64,000 nt of DNA from Dictyostelium discoideum (GCA_000004695.1 CM000151.3:1120001-1184000); one strand, 5' to 3'. Positions 1 to 64,000 are shown, counted from the stretch's first letter. Notes: generated by a model not told the origin, from the sequence alone. Translations and numbers: made by a program.

Positions 1-1
1 A

Positions 2-2212
2 CCACTAACTGAAAAGTCTGAAACAAATGATAATGATAATAATAATAATAATAATAATATTATAAATAATAATAATAATAATAATAATAATAATAATAAT
101 AATAATAATAACGATAATAAAAGCGATAATAATAATAATAATAATAATAATATTATAAATAATTATAATAATGAAAAAGATATCATTAATAATCAAGAAA
201 ATATTAATATAGAAACAAATAATAATAATAAACCTTATACTAATAATACTAATAATACTAATAATACTAATAATACTAATAATACTAATAATAATAATAA
301 TAATAATAATAATAATAATAATAATAATAATAATAATAATAATAATAATAATAATATTAATAATCAACAAAAGAGTACATTTAAGTCATCATTATCTTCA
401 TTCTTAACAAGTTATTATACTAGCTCAACAAATAATAATAATAGTGATAGTAATAATAATAATAATAATAATACAAATAATACAAATAATAATAAAACAA
501 CATATTTTGGACACGTTAGGAATTCAATATCATATGTCACTAGTAGTTTACCAGGAATACCATCATATAGTTCATTACCTTCATTTAACATTCCATTAAT
601 ATCATATATTTCAAATTCAATACCCTTCCCAATAAATTATTCAAGATCTTCAAATTTAACTAATAATAATAATAATAATAATACTACAACAACAACATCA
701 TCATCATCGTCATCATCACAACCAATACCAATAAAGAGTAATGATAAACAACAACAACAACAACAACAGCAACAACAATTAAATAATCCAATAGCACCAA
801 TAAATATGTCACCAAATTCATTTAATAGTATATCAATTGAAAGTAATAGATTGGTGATTAGTAATAGTTTAGGAACAGAGGAACAATTTCAAGATATTAT
901 ACGTAGATTAGAACAATCAAATTATAAATTACATTTGATTTCGTTAGATACATTCATTGAGAATATAAAGAATGATTTAACTCTATCAATAGATGATATA
1001 AGCTCTTCAGTTCAGTCCTATATTGCAACTACTTTACCAATATTAATGCATGTTTGTGCTTCAATTCCATTTCAAACCAATGAAGGTGCAATCAATATGA
1101 TCGAATCAAAGTCATCATCATCATCACCACTACCACCACCACTTCAAACTTTAATGGGCAAATCAATTAATGAAATCGAGATTATCATTTATGAATTTAT
1201 GGAACAATATATAGCTAGTAGATTATATCGTAGAATATTCTCATCTCAAGAGGCTATTCAAAAAGATACATTATTATGTGAACATATTTCAAGATTTCAA
1301 CATATTACACCCTCAAATTTAGATATCAATGATTCAATCATTTCAACACAATTCCTCGAACAAATTCAAGAGGAACTCTTATACATTTCAATCTTCAAAT
1401 CTCCACGTGAAAAATTAATGTGTATTAAAAAAAGTTTTAAATTATTATTTCAATTACTTTCAAAAACTCAATTACCAAGTGTTGTTGGTGCTGATTTATT
1501 ATTACCAATAGTAATTTTTGTATGTATTTTTTTTTTTTTTTTTTTTTATTTTTTTTTTTTTTATTTTTTTTTTTTTTGATCACTAAAATATCTAATTATT
1601 AATTTTTTTATTTTTTTTTTTTTCATTTAATTTTTAAAGTGTTTAATAAAATCAAATTTACCATTTCTCTGGTCAAATTTACAATTTATATCATTATTTA
1701 GAGATCCAACATTAATCGAGAGTGAAACAAATTATTTTTTAGTTACAATGATAACTGCAGCATCTTTCATTGAAAATATGACATTTGAATCTTTAACTGA
1801 TGCAGTCGATCCAAATGCACCACCAAAATCATCAGATGATAATATTATAATTGAATCAAATAATATAGAAATCAATAAAGAGAAAATTGAAGAACAAAAA
1901 GAAAATAATAATAATAATAATAATAATAATACATTAGAACCAATTATTATAGATACTTTACAACAACATGAATCAAATAAATTGGTTTCAGATAAAGAAA
2001 TTGTTAATGAAAATGAAAGAGAAATAAAAAATAGTGCCTCTAGTAACGATAATGATAAAATGAAAATAGTGACCAACAATGCAACAGAAGAAGAAAAAAA
2101 AAAATTATTCAAATTTTATAATTCTAAACCTGAAGAATTATCTGTCAAAGAAATTAAACAGCTTTTAAATGAATATAATTCTCTAGTTGATAAATACTTT
2201 GAAACTAAATAA
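2..2212 (+). CDS. VPS9-domain protein (Rab5-family GEF-like), 5' end lies outside the window; exons <2..1519 and 1640..2212
   Basis: Frame 2 is open from nt 2 through 1519 (N/S/Q-rich low complexity followed by a structured region). The VPS9 signature 'GADLLLPIVIFV' sits immediately before a GTATGT donor at 1520. The acceptor is tttttaaAG ending at 1639. The downstream exon continues the VPS9 consensus ('CLIKSNLPFLWSNLQFISLFRDPTLIESETNYFLVTMITAASFIENM', compare Rabex-5 'VLIKANPP..QSNLLYIQRYR...YYLTNL..A.SFIE'). The intron is 120 nt and preserves frame. Stop TAA at 2210-2212. Confidence 0.7.
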
Positions 2213-2813
2213 TTATTTCATTAATGTAACCACACAATAAATTTTAATAATAATAATAATAATCCCATAAAAAAACAAAAGCGCATTGCCATTCTTCAAC
2301 TTAAATTTAATAATTTACAAACCAAAACTTTTAATCAAAAAACAACACAAAATTTTACTAGAAAATAAAAAGAAAATTTTATTATTGGGGGGAACCCACC
2401 CACTTGTATTTTAGAATTTATTTACTTTTACTTTTTTAATTTATTGTTTTTTTTTTTTTTTTTTTTTTGTGGAAAATTGTGAAAAATATAAAAAAAAAGA
2501 AAGAATATATATCAAATGACCCAACCAAAGATTCAACATTGGTTATTTTTTTTTTTATTTTTTTAATTTCATTTTTTTTCTATTACAAAATGAAAAAATA
2601 AAATTGTAAATTTATCATATTATTTTTAGTTCTATTAATCTTTAAAATTATAATTATATCTTTTAAAAGATATTTTTATTTTCTATTTTTTTTTTTTTTA
2701 TTTTCTAAAGTTTTTCTTTTTTTTTTCTTTTTTTTTTTTTTCTTTTTTTTTTAAATAGCCACACCACATAAAGTTCAACTTTTGATAATTATTTGAATAG
2801 TACTTCTATTAAA

Positions 2814-62003: not shown

Positions 62004-63004
62004 TTAAAAATCTAAACTTTCATCATCTTGTTCTAAATATTGTTTAAAATAAACACAACGTTTGGGTGAAACTAAACCATTATCACTACATATATCGAAA
62101 ACTGGACAATTACCACATGGCATATTACAAAAATTATTTACAGGTATTGGTGTTTTAGTTGGTTTATAGAGGATACCAGATCTTCTACCAAGCATTGCAC
62201 CCATTCTAGTATCTCTCATCTCTTCGATATCACCATCGTAGATGACAGTGTTAACTAGTGCTTGAATATCCTCTGGACCTAAACTTTGACTTGTTGCCTC
62301 TTCAGCAACTTTTCTAAGATAAGTGATGATATCTGCTAAATCTACGGCACCTTTATTGTCTACAAATGTTTTAATATGCATTTTCATGATTTGAATATAT
62401 TGATGATCATACGATTGATCCGAATACAATTGACCACCTGTGATCTCTCTACTTGGTTCCATATTATATAACATGTATACTTTTTTTCTACCACTTTGAA
62501 TTGATTTCACTGATTTAATAAGTTTTCTTGATTCTAATGTCTTTAAAATCTTTGTAATTTGTACTTGTTGATAACCTGAACTATTCTTTAATTCTCTTGT
62601 CCATGCACCTGTATTCGATGATGCTTCAATTAATTGATATATTAAAAAATCTTCAACTCCTAATCCTCTAAATCTAAAATTTTTAAAAATAACAATTAAC
62701 AAATGACAAATAAACTATTATTAATATTGATAATGAATAGTTATCTATTAAAATAATAATAATAATATTAATAATAATAATTTAATAATTACTTTGCTTG
62801 ATCTTCAGGATTAACTTCTTTATATGATGTCGTTTCATCAGAGTTTTGTATAAGCATTAATCTACCTTGCTTGATTAGATTATTTATAACTTTAACTATT
62901 TCCTCCATTTTATGTCCTAAACTAACCTCAATCATTTGTTGAGTTAGACCTGTTGGATATTTATGACATAAATCTAAAAATTTATTCTCCAATTCTTCAG
63001 ACAT
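62004..63004 (-). CDS. RNA polymerase III subunit RPC6 (POLR3F/Rpc34; about 293 aa); exons 63004..62793 and 62673..62004
   Basis: Exon 1 is 'MSEELENKFLDLCHKYPTGLTQQMIEVSL...', a winged helix like POLR3F 'IIELCHQFPHGITDQVI'. Exon 2 has 'FLIYQLIEASSNTGAWTRELKNSSGYQQVQITKILKTLESRKLIKSVKSI..KKVYMLYNMEPSREITGG', which matches POLR3F 'LVYQIIEDAGNKGIWSRDIRYKSNLPLTEINKILKNLESKKLIKAVKSV..KKVYMLYNLQPDRSVTGG'. The C-terminal Cys cluster 'CNMPCGNCPVFDIC...SPKRCVYF' is the Fe-S site. Donor GTAATT (phase 2). Acceptor ttttAG at 62675-62674; an alternative AG 6 nt downstream stays in frame. Confidence 0.7.
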
Positions 63005-63611
63005 TTTTTAAGTATATGTATATTTTATTTGTTTTTTTTTATTTTATTTTATTTTATTTTATTTTATTTTATTTGTTTTTTTTTATTCGTTTTTTTTTTT
63101 TTTTATATATTTAATAGTTTTTTTTTATTTTATTTTTATTTTTATTTTTATTTAAATTTATATTTTTTAAAATTAAGTAGGTTGGAATTTATATAGTGAG
63201 ATGGGGTGTTATATATTATTTACAAAGGAGAAAAAGTGTACTTCTTGTTTTTACACAAATAAAAAAAAAATGAGGAAAAAAAAAATGAAATTAATTTAAA
63301 GCCAACATTTCACGATTTTTTCAAAAAAATTTTATTTTAAATTTTTTTTTTTTTCATATTTTTTTTTTTTTTATTTTGGGAAATTAATCAAGATAGTATG
63401 GAATAAAAATATTAAAAAAAAAGAAAAAAAAAGTTATATAACTAGAGTTTTTTATTTATTTAATTATTAAATTAATTAATCATTTTATTTATTTTGATTA
63501 ATTTAATCATTTAATTATTTATTTAATTATTTAATTAATTATTATATTTACTTATTTAATTAATTAATTAATTATTATATTTATTTATACATATTTATTT
63601 ATCTATTATAT

Positions 63612-64000
63612 TTATTTATAAAGATATTTGAAAGGAGGTATAAAACAATTTTTGAAAGAAACATTTTCAAAACCTTTTAAATAAATAGTATTTGTTGATT
63701 CAGTTTTAAAAAAATGACGAACAGTTGATGGAATAGTTGAATAGTCTAAAGTGGTTTTAATATTTCCAATATATAAATAACATACACTACTTGGTATTAA
63801 TGATTTGGTGTTATTGGTTGTCATTGATGAGAAAGGTGTGATTGAATTTGAGTCACATGATGATGTAGTTAAAGATTGATTAAAACCATCCAATAATATA
63901 ATACCCATGGTAGTATTTGGTATTGATCCCTCTATCAGTGTATTATCACCAATTTCACCTAAAAATATATATTTCAATGGGGGCATTAAACTTGGTAGTA
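63612..64000 (-). CDS. FNIP-repeat protein, 3' portion (the gene continues beyond the window end)
   Basis: '...LPSLMPPLKYIFLGEIGDNTLIEGSIPNTTMGIILLDGFNQSLTTS...YLYIGNIKTTL..IPSTVRHFF' has FNIP-repeat character (LP.SL..L.FG..FNQ.L). The frame stays open upstream of the ATG at 63986 and up to nt 64000, so the N-terminal exon or exons are outside the window. Confidence 0.5.
   Translation of the reverse strand, partial: LPSLMPPLKYIFLGEIGDNTLIEGSIPNTTMGIILLDGFNQSLTTSSCDSNSITPFSSMTTNNTKSLIPSSVCYLYIGNIKTTLDYSTIPSTVRHFFKTESTNTIYLKGFENVSFKNCFIPPFKYLYK

What the first reader, a model, noticed from the sequence alone, without database searches (positions are those of the whole stretch)
1..64000. The window is dictyostelid nuclear chromatin, not a prokaryotic locus. 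The ORF track is misleading and the genes are spliced.
Base composition, (AAT)/(CAA) coding microsatellites, GTAAGT...(T)nAG mini-introns, four FNIP-repeat genes (a family confined to dictyostelids) and a P2X receptor all identify Dictyostelium-type DNA. At least 16 of the roughly 27 genes need one to four introns to yield a sensible protein. Some ORF-track 'Met' residues are TTG codons. A search for defence islands, CRISPR arrays or operons is therefore not applicable. Novelty here lies in individual eukaryotic genes and non-coding elements.
Basis: partly seen in the sequence, partly recalled or inferred. Interest (0 to 1): 0.5.

Follow-up and report, generated by a model that had tools for sequence, protein, structure and literature searches.

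The report
Ordinary Dictyostelium discoideum chromosome 2 segment
The window is a stretch of nuclear chromosome 2 of the social amoeba Dictyostelium discoideum, a sequenced model organism, carrying 27 ordinary eukaryotic genes, most of them interrupted by short introns, so it is correctly identified but not new.

Summary
After I removed GT...AG introns by hand, seven gene models were exact full-length matches to D. discoideum AX4 RefSeq proteins, including P2X receptor A, mevalonate kinase and RNA polymerase III rpc6. Four unspliced ORFs were also exact AX4 matches. All sit on a contig of 8,484,197 bp, which I take from memory to be AX4 chromosome 2.

A second D. discoideum assembly tiles the whole window at 99.2-99.6% identity. 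Gene order is conserved in D. cf. discoideum, D. citrinum and D. firmibasis.

Two assembled contigs from public sequencing runs lack three of the predicted introns, cut at the predicted bases.

I count 27 genes, 18 of them spliced, with 32 introns and one to four introns per spliced gene.

GC content is 26% in coding sequence, 9% in introns and 12% between genes. Of 66 perfect trinucleotide tracts, 51 lie in coding sequence.

Three corrections:
- Only two genes pass Pfam's FNIP model, not four.
- FNIP repeats also occur in giant viruses and a brown alga.
- The hexamer GTAAGT is not enriched on its own; GTATGT is the commonest donor.

Verdict: correct, already known, low interest.

The parts
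1..2212 (+). VPS9-domain gene, 5' end cut off by the window start. Intron at 1520-1639 (120 nt, GTATGT...AAAG).
   Evidence: The spliced product gives a full VPS9 domain (profile 1-103 of 104, 106.8 bits). The unspliced ORF gives 49.4 bits and profile 1-58. The gene called in L008 is 715 aa and begins about 48 nt before the window.
2814..3518 (+). Ras/Rab-family small GTPase, 234 aa, single exon. The ORF track started it at an upstream TTG (2793).
   Evidence: Pfam Ras, 1.3e-25. The 234-aa product is the exact product of a called gene in GCA_054883475.1.
3798..4312 (-). Small conserved gene of 102 aa. Intron 3877-4085 (209 nt) contains (CAA)27.
   Evidence: Model built. Annotated orthologues of 103-107 aa, 68-93% identical over 100% of the query, exist in five Dictyostelium assemblies.
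4620..7271 (-). 883-aa single-exon gene with no Pfam domain. It shares only an N-terminal motif of about 27 aa with FNIP-family proteins.
   Evidence: A gene of the same length (883 aa) is called in L008. No Pfam hit.
7658..8173 (-). DDB_G0272010, 171 aa, single exon.
   Evidence: Exact match to XP_645364.1 (AX4). The ACTFIT strain version is a different cluster member.
9144..10760 (-). 504-aa protein with an E2F/DP winged-helix domain. Intron 9387-9488 (102 nt).
   Evidence: Pfam E2F_TDP on the spliced product, 27.6 bits. The gene called in L008 is 504 aa.
12270..15083 (-). FNIP-repeat protein, 937 aa, single exon.
   Evidence: Pfam FNIP, 1.6e-50. Genes of 937 aa are called in L005 and L008.
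15748..17670 (-). FtsJ-type rRNA methyltransferase, 640 aa, single exon.
   Evidence: Pfam FtsJ. Exact match to XP_645367.1.
17998..21185 (-). LMBR1-like membrane protein, 952 aa. Introns 20745-20824, 20407-20582 and 20028-20100.
   Evidence: The spliced N-terminus gives one continuous LMBR1 match of 156.6 bits. The separate ORFs give 67.8 and 30.1 bits. The gene called in L005 is 952 aa.
22461..22977 (+). DDB_G0271992, 141 aa. Intron 22494-22584.
   Evidence: The spliced model is an exact match to XP_645369.1.
23353..24285 (+). 279-aa low-complexity protein. Intron 23804-23896.
   Evidence: Model built. The gene called in L005 is 279 aa.
24876..26424 (+). 491-aa hydrophobic (probably membrane) protein. 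Intron 26091-26163.
   Evidence: Model built. The gene called in L005 is 491 aa.
26550..28085 (-). 511-aa ORF, annotated elsewhere as a 487-aa product. It holds a probable in-frame, stop-free intron at 27989-28060 (72 nt, 9.7% GC).
   Evidence: The 511-aa ORF is not in the protein collection.
28337..28777 (-). CBM20 starch-binding domain protein DDB_G0272062, 146 aa.
   Evidence: Pfam CBM_20. Exact match to the AX4 protein.
30556..38821 (+). One PHD-finger gene of 2722 aa that the ORF track split into two ORFs. Intron 33367-33463 (97 nt).
   Evidence: PHD domains in both ORFs. The spliced model is 2722 aa, the same length as the genes called in L004 and L005.
39049..40899 (-). FNIP-repeat protein DDB_G0272066, 616 aa, single exon.
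   Evidence: Pfam FNIP, 3.7e-47. Exact match to XP_645375.1.
42280..43790 (-). Secreted PA14-domain protein DDB_G0272042, 388 aa. Four introns: 43650-43723, 43502-43599, 43280-43366 and 42779-42863.
   Evidence: The spliced model is an exact match to XP_645376.1.
44190..45207 (-). C2-domain protein, 254 aa. Introns 44941-45029 and 44609-44772.
   Evidence: The spliced model is an exact match to XP_645377.1. The C2 domain covers profile 1-92 on the spliced protein.
45671..47128 (-). p2xA, P2X receptor A, 378 aa. Introns 46997-47106, 46727-46814 and 46135-46257.
   Evidence: Pfam P2X_receptor hits fall on separate exons. The spliced model is an exact match to XP_645378.1 / Q86JM7 P2XA_DICDI.
47768..49576 (-). 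PIG-P (GPI-anchor biosynthesis) protein, 602-aa ORF.
   Evidence: Pfam PIG-P, 4.2e-39. The gene called in L004 is 602 aa. The exact 602-aa sequence is not in the collection.
50947..52056 (+). Fatty-acid elongase (GNS1/SUR4) DDB_G0272012, 296 aa. Introns 51154-51266 and 51393-51498.
   Evidence: The spliced model is an exact match to XP_645380.1. The ELO domain covers profile 3-240 of 242.
52213..53929 (-). Class I/II aminotransferase, 481 aa. Introns 53594-53731 and 53256-53388.
   Evidence: Pfam Aminotran_1_2. The orthologues called in L002, L003, L004 and L006 are all 481 aa.
55168..56445 (+). DCN1-like cullin-binding protein, 245-aa model. Four introns: 55264-55427, 55531-55635, 55707-55797 and 56107-56286.
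   Evidence: The spliced product gives a full Cullin_binding domain (profile 2-118 of 118, 100.5 bits). The single exon gives 38.4 bits. Orthologues are 245 aa in three assemblies. The model is not an exact match to any protein in the collection.
56734..58544 (-). Mevalonate kinase, 390 aa. Introns 58379-58513 and 57666-58168; the second holds (TA)~210.
   Evidence: The spliced model is an exact match to XP_645383.1. The intron-less contig L009 aligns in three blocks that lack both introns.
59282..61834 (+). F-box / ankyrin-repeat protein, 803 aa. Intron 59814-59954. An SH2 domain is recorded for the orthologues.
   Evidence: Pfam F-box and Ank fall on two separate ORFs. The gene called in L006 is 803 aa and spans 2553 nt. 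The model is not an exact match in the collection.
62004..63004 (-). RNA polymerase III subunit rpc6 (RPC34), 293 aa. Intron 62674-62792 (119 nt).
   Evidence: The spliced model is an exact match to XP_645385.1. The intron-less contig L007 aligns to 63052-62793 and 62673-61985, so it lacks exactly the intron.
63612..64000 (-). C-terminal 129 codons of a 509-aa gene that runs past the window end. It has a weak B-box zinc finger and degenerate FNIP-like repeats.
   Evidence: The gene is called in L006 at 7865-9394. Pfam zf-B_box scores 22.8 bits, below its 24.1-bit cut-off. FNIP scores E = 0.22, below threshold.

Best explanation
The window is 64 kb of nuclear chromosome 2 of Dictyostelium discoideum, either strain AX4 or a strain indistinguishable from it at the loci tested. 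It covers the gene run DDB_G0271992 to DDB_G0272066 and its neighbours. It carries 27 protein-coding genes on both strands, about one per 2.4 kb, with 67% of bases coding. Each gene is transcribed on its own, and 18 are interrupted by 32 very AT-rich spliceosomal GT...AG introns. A bacterial table-11 ORF caller breaks these genes into pieces, starts some pieces at TTG codons, and also reports antisense ORFs across low-complexity repeats. Shown: the species identity, the gene content and the exon structure of most genes. Inferred: that the two intron-less contigs come from cDNA, and the exact structures of six genes whose products are not exact database matches.
For: - Seven hand-spliced models are exact full-length matches to AX4 proteins: P2XA XP_645378.1, mevalonate kinase XP_645383.1, rpc6 XP_645385.1, C2 protein XP_645377.1, elongase XP_645380.1, DDB_G0271992 XP_645369.1 and PA14 protein XP_645376.1. 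All are on a contig of 8,484,197 bp.
- Four unspliced ORFs are also exact AX4 matches: DDB_G0272066, XP_645367.1, DDB_G0272010 and DDB_G0272062.
- The accession numbers run in the same order as the genes along the window.
- For DDB_G0272010 the window equals the AX4 entry and not the ACTFIT strain entry.
- Loci L004, L005, L006 and L008 of GCA_054883475.1 tile window 1-64000 at 99.2-99.6% identity. Most differences are gap openings.
- Their called genes have the same product lengths as my models: 504, 952, 141, 279, 491, 2722, 616, 388, 254, 378, 602, 296, 481, 390, 803 and 293 aa.
- Gene order is conserved in D. cf. discoideum, D. citrinum and D. firmibasis.
- The intron-less contigs L007 and L009 lack three introns, cut at the predicted bases.
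- Pfam domains split across ORFs become complete after splicing: VPS9, LMBR1 and Cullin_binding.
- The median intron is 105 nt and CDS GC is 26%. Published values for D. discoideum are a median of 104 nt and 28.35% (PMC4683709).
- 25 of 26 stop codons are TAA.
- No tRNA gene and no Rfam hit were found.
- 23 kb of the window (39000-62000) has no megablast match in the plasmid or phage collections.
Against: - Six products are not exact matches in the protein collection: the 883-aa, 511-aa, 937-aa, 602-aa and 803-aa models and the 245-aa DCN1 model. So either the AX4 reference models differ from mine, or the window differs from AX4 in repeat lengths.
- I could not align the window to the AX4 chromosome itself, because no eukaryotic nucleotide collection was available.
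- I could not check what kind of sequencing run the two intron-less contigs came from.
Confidence: 0.98

Rival explanations
1. The window comes from another dictyostelid species, such as D. purpureum, D. citrinum, D. firmibasis or the 'D. cf. discoideum' lineage, rather than from D. discoideum itself.
For: The first homology search gave only 70% identity to a D. cf. discoideum protein. Strains labelled D. discoideum in GCA_054859355.1 and GCA_054859385.1 are only 88-93% identical in DNA.
Against: The 70% top hit arose because only the 8000 candidates sharing most words were scored for a low-complexity query. The same ORF is an exact match to AX4 XP_645367.1. Eleven products are identical to AX4 entries. 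D. purpureum rpc6 is 85% identical over the ORF, and the full proteins share 246 of 293 residues. D. cf. discoideum DNA is only 77-85% identical.
Confidence: 0.015
2. The window is a very AT-rich prokaryotic, phage or giant-virus locus, and the ORF track can be read as operons. Giant viruses also carry FNIP repeats.
For: There are long uninterrupted ORFs of up to 1772 aa. FNIP repeats occur in giant viruses (PMC9525666).
Against: The domains found are typical of eukaryotic cell biology: VPS9, PHD, PIG-P, F-box, RPC34, DCN1-type Cullin_binding and P2X. Spliceosomal introns are needed to obtain products identical to AX4 proteins. Window 39000-62000 has no match in the plasmid or phage collections.
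Confidence: 0.002
3. The window is Dictyostelium DNA, but organellar or extrachromosomal (the mitochondrial genome or the rDNA palindrome) rather than chromosomal.
For: None beyond the AT-richness.
Against: No rRNA, tRNA or other Rfam hit was found. The genes are nuclear-type with spliceosomal introns. The matching proteins lie on contigs of 8.48 Mb and 3.6 Mb.
Confidence: 0.002

Closest known systems
Dictyostelium discoideum AX4 chromosome 2, gene run DDB_G0271992 to DDB_G0272066 (RefSeq proteins XP_645364 to XP_645385)
   Same: Eleven proteins are identical over their full length, and their accession order follows the gene order in the window.
   Different: Six of my gene products are not exact entries in the collection. 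The reference models or the repeat lengths may differ there. The chromosome's DNA itself was not available for comparison.
D. discoideum assembly GCA_054883475.1, contig JBTAPE010000001.1, about 1.136-1.216 Mb (loci L004, L005, L006, L008)
   Same: Collinear with the whole window at 99.2-99.6% identity, with the same gene order and the same product lengths.
   Different: It has small indels in homopolymers and microsatellites, and the alignment breaks inside the (TA)n tract. Its DDB_G0272010 protein differs from the AX4 and window version. It does not call the 102-aa gene, and it calls a 288-aa DCN1-like product.
Syntenic regions of D. cf. discoideum (L001, L010), D. citrinum (L011, L012), D. 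firmibasis (L013) and the divergent 'D. discoideum' assemblies (L002, L003)
   Same: Same genes in the same order, with similar intron budgets.
   Different: DNA identity is 77-93% where measured (L001-L003). D. citrinum L012 has an extra FNIP-like gene between the PA14 and FNIP-2 orthologues. The GC-rich island at 41965-42075 has no match in L010-L013.
P2X receptor A (p2xA), the intracellular ATP-gated channel of the Dictyostelium contractile vacuole
   Same: The 378-aa product is identical to Q86JM7. The protein and its four paralogues have been functionally characterised (PMC3774368, PMC2787382).
   Different: Nothing differs. This is that gene.

Membership tests
Dictyostelium discoideum nuclear genome (AX4 chromosome 2) | Encoded proteins identical to the reference proteome, in reference order | tested here: met
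   Eleven exact full-length matches to XP_645364 through XP_645385, on a contig of 8,484,197 bp.
Dictyostelium discoideum nuclear genome (AX4 chromosome 2) | Near-identical collinear DNA in an independent assembly of the species | tested here: met
   Four loci of GCA_054883475.1 tile the window at 99.2-99.6% identity.
Dictyostelium discoideum nuclear genome (AX4 chromosome 2) | Direct nucleotide alignment to the AX4 chromosome 2 record | not testable with these tools
   No eukaryotic nucleotide collection was offered. The look-ups returned DNA only from other assemblies.
Dictyostelium discoideum nuclear genome (AX4 chromosome 2) | Characteristic composition and gene architecture: about 22% GC, very AT-rich short introns, coding poly-N and poly-Q tracts, TAA stops | tested here: met
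   GC is 21.5% overall, 26.3% in CDS, 8.7% in introns and 12.4% between genes. The median intron is 105 nt, against a published 104 nt (PMC4683709). 51 of 66 trinucleotide tracts are coding. 25 of 26 stops are TAA.
Spliceosomal (GT...AG) introns | Removal gives an open frame and the known protein | tested here: met
   Seven spliced models (16 introns) are exact matches to AX4 proteins. Other models match annotated product lengths.
Spliceosomal (GT...AG) introns | Transcripts lack the intron, cut at the predicted bases | tested here: met
   Met for 3 of 32 introns. L007 lacks 62674-62792, and L009 lacks 58379-58513 and 57666-58168. The other 29 were not tested at RNA level. That these contigs come from cDNA is inferred from their lack of introns.
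P2X receptor family (PF00864) | Significant match to the family profile, plus identity to a characterised member | tested here: met
   Pfam match of 79.9 bits against a 27-bit cut-off on the spliced protein. The product is identical to P2XA_DICDI.
   Met by two genes only: 12270-15083 (169.4 bits) and 39049-40899 (158.7 bits). The 509-aa gene at the window end scores 12.1 bits. The genes at 4620-7271 and 26550-28085 give no hit, and phmmer with either FNIP protein finds only the other one.
   PMC9525666 lists family members in Cafeteria roenbergensis virus, Megavirus and a brown alga, besides Dictyostelium and Polysphondylium.
Prokaryotic locus (operons, defence islands, CRISPR) | Uninterrupted genes with prokaryotic homologues and context | tested here: not met
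   18 of 27 genes are spliced, and the domain set is eukaryotic. Window 39000-62000 has no plasmid or phage match.

The most novel reading that the evidence does not exclude
The window may hold one small element missing from current annotation. This is the GC-rich island at about 41965-42075. It is 46% GC, set in intergenic DNA of about 12% GC. It has a 12-bp hairpin with a UUCG loop, followed downstream by a T-run on the minus strand. It could be a species-specific small non-coding RNA gene. It has no Rfam match and no counterpart in the syntenic DNA of three related species.
Probability: 0.1. Interest if true: 0.2.

Novelty: already known. Interest (0 to 1): 0.07.

Why it matters
The main value is triage. 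The window should leave any pipeline that looks for prokaryotic operons, defence systems or CRISPR arrays, and its table-11 ORF track should not be trusted. The region belongs to a sequenced, annotated model organism, and at least one of its genes (p2xA) is functionally characterised. It also shows that the first-stage reader can recognise eukaryotic DNA and predict its gene structure accurately from raw sequence.

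Tried and rejected
1. My first exact look-up of ten ORFs found nothing. For the eight minus-strand ORFs I had trimmed the wrong end, and the two plus-strand ORFs were pieces of spliced genes. It was not evidence against AX4; corrected look-ups succeeded.
2. The first homology search suggested only 70% identity to any Dictyostelium protein. Only the 8000 candidates sharing most words were scored for that low-complexity query.
3. GTAAGT tested as a stand-alone signal is not enriched. 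Only the context of an interrupted frame, an AT-rich tract and a closing AG is informative.
4. An automatic ORF-joining script produced many false GT...AG joins. Among the models first built from its joins, a 'second exon' for the 883-aa gene and a gene at 29.6-30.2 kb translated to poly-F nonsense. I dropped both.
5. I looked for third and fourth FNIP genes with Pfam at E up to 10, with phmmer and with a motif scan. Only one sub-threshold hit turned up.
6. I asked whether the 40.9-42.3 kb intergenic region holds a relic of the extra FNIP-like gene seen in D. citrinum. tblastn found none.
7. Rfam at a permissive threshold gave one chance-level hit: sR52, E = 0.23, inside coding sequence.
8. 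Folding of the GC island was no better than shuffled sequence, with z = -0.9 on the minus strand and +0.5 on the plus strand.
9. The genome paper PMC1352341 is not held in the library. I used PMC4683709 for intron statistics instead.

Full report
**Observation**

The window is 21.5% GC with no strand or regional trend. It has no tRNA gene and no Rfam match at gathering thresholds. Tandem Repeats Finder returns 364 rows, dominated by (AAT)n, (CAA/TTG)n and long A or T runs. There are 66 perfect trinucleotide tracts of at least six units. Of these, 51 lie inside coding sequence: 35 are (AAT)n and 13 are (AAC/CAA)n. The predicted proteins contain 25 poly-N and 5 poly-Q runs of at least eight residues.

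**Gene content**

Pfam scans of the table-11 ORFs gave only eukaryote-type domains: VPS9, Ras/Rab, FNIP, FtsJ, LMBR1, CBM20, PHD, C2, P2X receptor, PIG-P, ELO, aminotransferase, Cullin_binding, GHMP kinase, F-box, ankyrin and RPC34. Several domains were split across neighbouring ORFs in different frames. P2X profile positions 1-62 fell in one ORF and 293-360 in another. LMBR1 positions 28-92 and 86-179 fell in two ORFs. This is what introns would produce.

**Identity**

I built spliced models by hand from the sequence. Seven of them are exact full-length matches to D. discoideum AX4 RefSeq/UniProt proteins:
- P2X receptor A (XP_645378.1, Q86JM7)
- mevalonate kinase (XP_645383.1)
- RNA polymerase III rpc6 (XP_645385.1)
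- a C2-domain protein (XP_645377.1)
- elongase DDB_G0272012 (XP_645380.1)
- DDB_G0271992 (XP_645369.1)
- PA14 protein DDB_G0272042 (XP_645376.1)

All lie on a contig of 8,484,197 bp. That this is the size of AX4 chromosome 2 is my own knowledge, not a tool result.

Four unspliced ORFs are also exact AX4 matches: FNIP protein DDB_G0272066, rRNA methyltransferase XP_645367.1, DDB_G0272010 and CBM20 protein DDB_G0272062. The accession numbers follow the order of the genes in the window. For DDB_G0272010 the window equals the AX4 entry and not the entry of strain ACTFIT.

Four loci from a second D. discoideum assembly, GCA_054883475.1, tile the window end to end at 99.2-99.6% identity. Most differences are gap openings. 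Gene order is conserved in D. cf. discoideum, D. citrinum and D. firmibasis. DNA identity to D. cf. discoideum (L001) is 77-85% and to the two divergent D. discoideum assemblies (L002, L003) is 88-93% (synteny). A 23-kb piece has no megablast match among plasmids or phages.

My early failure to find ten ORFs by exact look-up was my own coordinate error on the minus strand, plus the use of exon fragments. The 70% top hit arose because only the 8000 candidates sharing most words were scored.

**Introns**

I count 27 genes (see the parts list). Twenty-six correspond to genes called in GCA_054883475.1. Sixteen of their recorded product lengths equal the lengths of my models.

The 27th is a 102-aa gene at 3798-4312 (-). 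I found it while examining GC-rich non-coding islands. Its intron carries (CAA)27. Orthologues of 103-107 aa, 68-93% identical over the full length, are annotated in five related assemblies.

Eighteen genes are spliced, with 32 introns in all. Ten genes have one intron, four have two, two have three and two have four. All introns are GT...AG. The 30 measured are 73-503 nt long with a median of 105 nt, and all 32 together are 8.7% GC. PMC4683709 reports a median of 104 nt for D. discoideum introns and a median CDS GC of 28.35%. The window's CDS is 26.3% GC.

Evidence for splicing that is independent of my own model-building:
- Sixteen introns are needed to reach the seven exact AX4 proteins.
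- Domains become complete after splicing. VPS9 rises from 49.4 to 106.8 bits and covers profile 1-103 of 104. LMBR1 rises from 67.8 and 30.1 bits to 156.6. Cullin_binding rises from 38.4 to 100.5 bits and covers profile 2-118 of 118.
- Two contigs assembled from public sequencing runs lack the introns. L007 (SRR24091723) aligns to 63052-62793 and 62673-61985, which omits exactly the 119-nt rpc6 intron. L009 (SRR24091727) aligns in three blocks that omit both mevalonate kinase introns, including the 503-nt one. That these contigs come from cDNA is an inference from their structure.

**The ORF track**

ORFs reported with TTG starts include 2793-3518, whose true ATG is at 2814. They also include 42280-42744, 44190-44594 and 62004-62702, which are the last exons of the PA14, C2 and rpc6 genes. 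The two PHD ORFs are one 2722-aa gene joined across a 97-nt intron. Many other listed ORFs are antisense readings of low-complexity coding repeats.

1. Only two genes pass Pfam's FNIP model. The partial 509-aa gene at the window end has degenerate FNIP-like repeats that score 12.1 bits against a 21-bit cut-off. The 883-aa gene shares only an N-terminal motif of about 27 residues with FNIP-family proteins. The 511-aa ORF shows nothing.
2. FNIP repeats are not confined to dictyostelids. PMC9525666 lists Cafeteria roenbergensis virus, Megavirus and a brown alga.
3. GTAAGT is not enriched as a bare hexamer: 18 occurrences on both strands, against about 17 expected per strand. It heads 6 of the 30 introns measured, while GTATGT heads 8 and GTAATT 6.

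None of these affects the conclusion.

**What remains open**

Six products are not exact entries in the protein collection: the 883-aa, 937-aa, 602-aa, 803-aa and 511-aa models and the 245-aa DCN1 model. The reference models may differ from mine, or repeat lengths may differ. I could not align the window to the AX4 chromosome itself.

A GC-rich island at about 41965-42075 has no counterpart in the four loci (L010-L013) of the three related species, no Rfam hit and no significant fold. It is unexplained.

**Verdict**

The finding is right and the region is already known. It is a segment of a sequenced, annotated model-organism chromosome that includes the functionally characterised p2xA gene (PMC3774368, PMC2787382). 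Its value is in triage: the window is not a prokaryotic locus. Interest is low.

Noticed in passing
window 57686-58105, inside intron 57666-58168 of mevalonate kinase, minus strand: A (TA)n microsatellite of about 210 units fills most of a 503-nt intron, by far the longest in the window. The intron-less contig L009 lacks it. The orthologous gene spans in GCA_054859355.1 and GCA_054859385.1 are about 420 nt shorter. The alignment to GCA_054883475.1 breaks inside the tract. So its length is variable.
   Followed up: partly
window 3798-4312 (-): A small gene of 102 aa whose 209-nt intron contains (CAA)27. It is not called in the GCA_054883475.1 annotation. It is annotated and 68-93% identical in five related assemblies. 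It has no Pfam domain.
   Followed up: yes
window 41965-42075: A GC-rich island (46% in an 80-nt window) set in intergenic DNA of about 12% GC. On the minus strand it has a 12-bp hairpin with a UUCG loop and a downstream T-run. It has no Rfam hit, no match in the syntenic DNA of D. cf. discoideum, D. citrinum or D. firmibasis, and it folds no better than shuffled sequence.
   Followed up: partly
window 27989-28060 (-), inside ORF 26550-28085: An in-frame, stop-free 72-nt GT...AG segment of 9.7% GC. It accounts exactly for the difference between the 511-aa ORF and the 487-aa product annotated in GCA_054883475.1. An ORF caller cannot see an intron of this kind.
   Followed up: partly
window 54094-56445 (+): The annotations disagree on the DCN1-like gene. 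My four-intron model and three orthologues give 245 aa and a complete Cullin_binding domain. GCA_054883475.1 calls a 288-aa product that starts about 1 kb further upstream, in very AT-rich DNA.
   Followed up: partly
L012:10100-11992 (D. citrinum), syntenic with window 40900-42279: One D. citrinum assembly has an extra 630-aa FNIP-like gene between the PA14 and FNIP-2 orthologues. The window has no trace of it. This is gene gain or loss within the FNIP family between close species.
   Followed up: partly
window 16832-17077 (-), inside the FtsJ methyltransferase CDS: A tandem duplication of a 132-nt unit, 1.9 copies at 80% match, lies within the low-complexity N-terminal half of the protein.
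   Followed up: no
window 7188-7268 (-), N-terminus of the 883-aa gene: The first ~27 residues (EDLFLTIYRNKYLREKIFKFIKLHNKN) resemble the N-termini of FNIP-repeat proteins. They are 59% identical to the D. citrinum FNIP-like protein, although the protein itself has no detectable FNIP repeats.
   Followed up: partly
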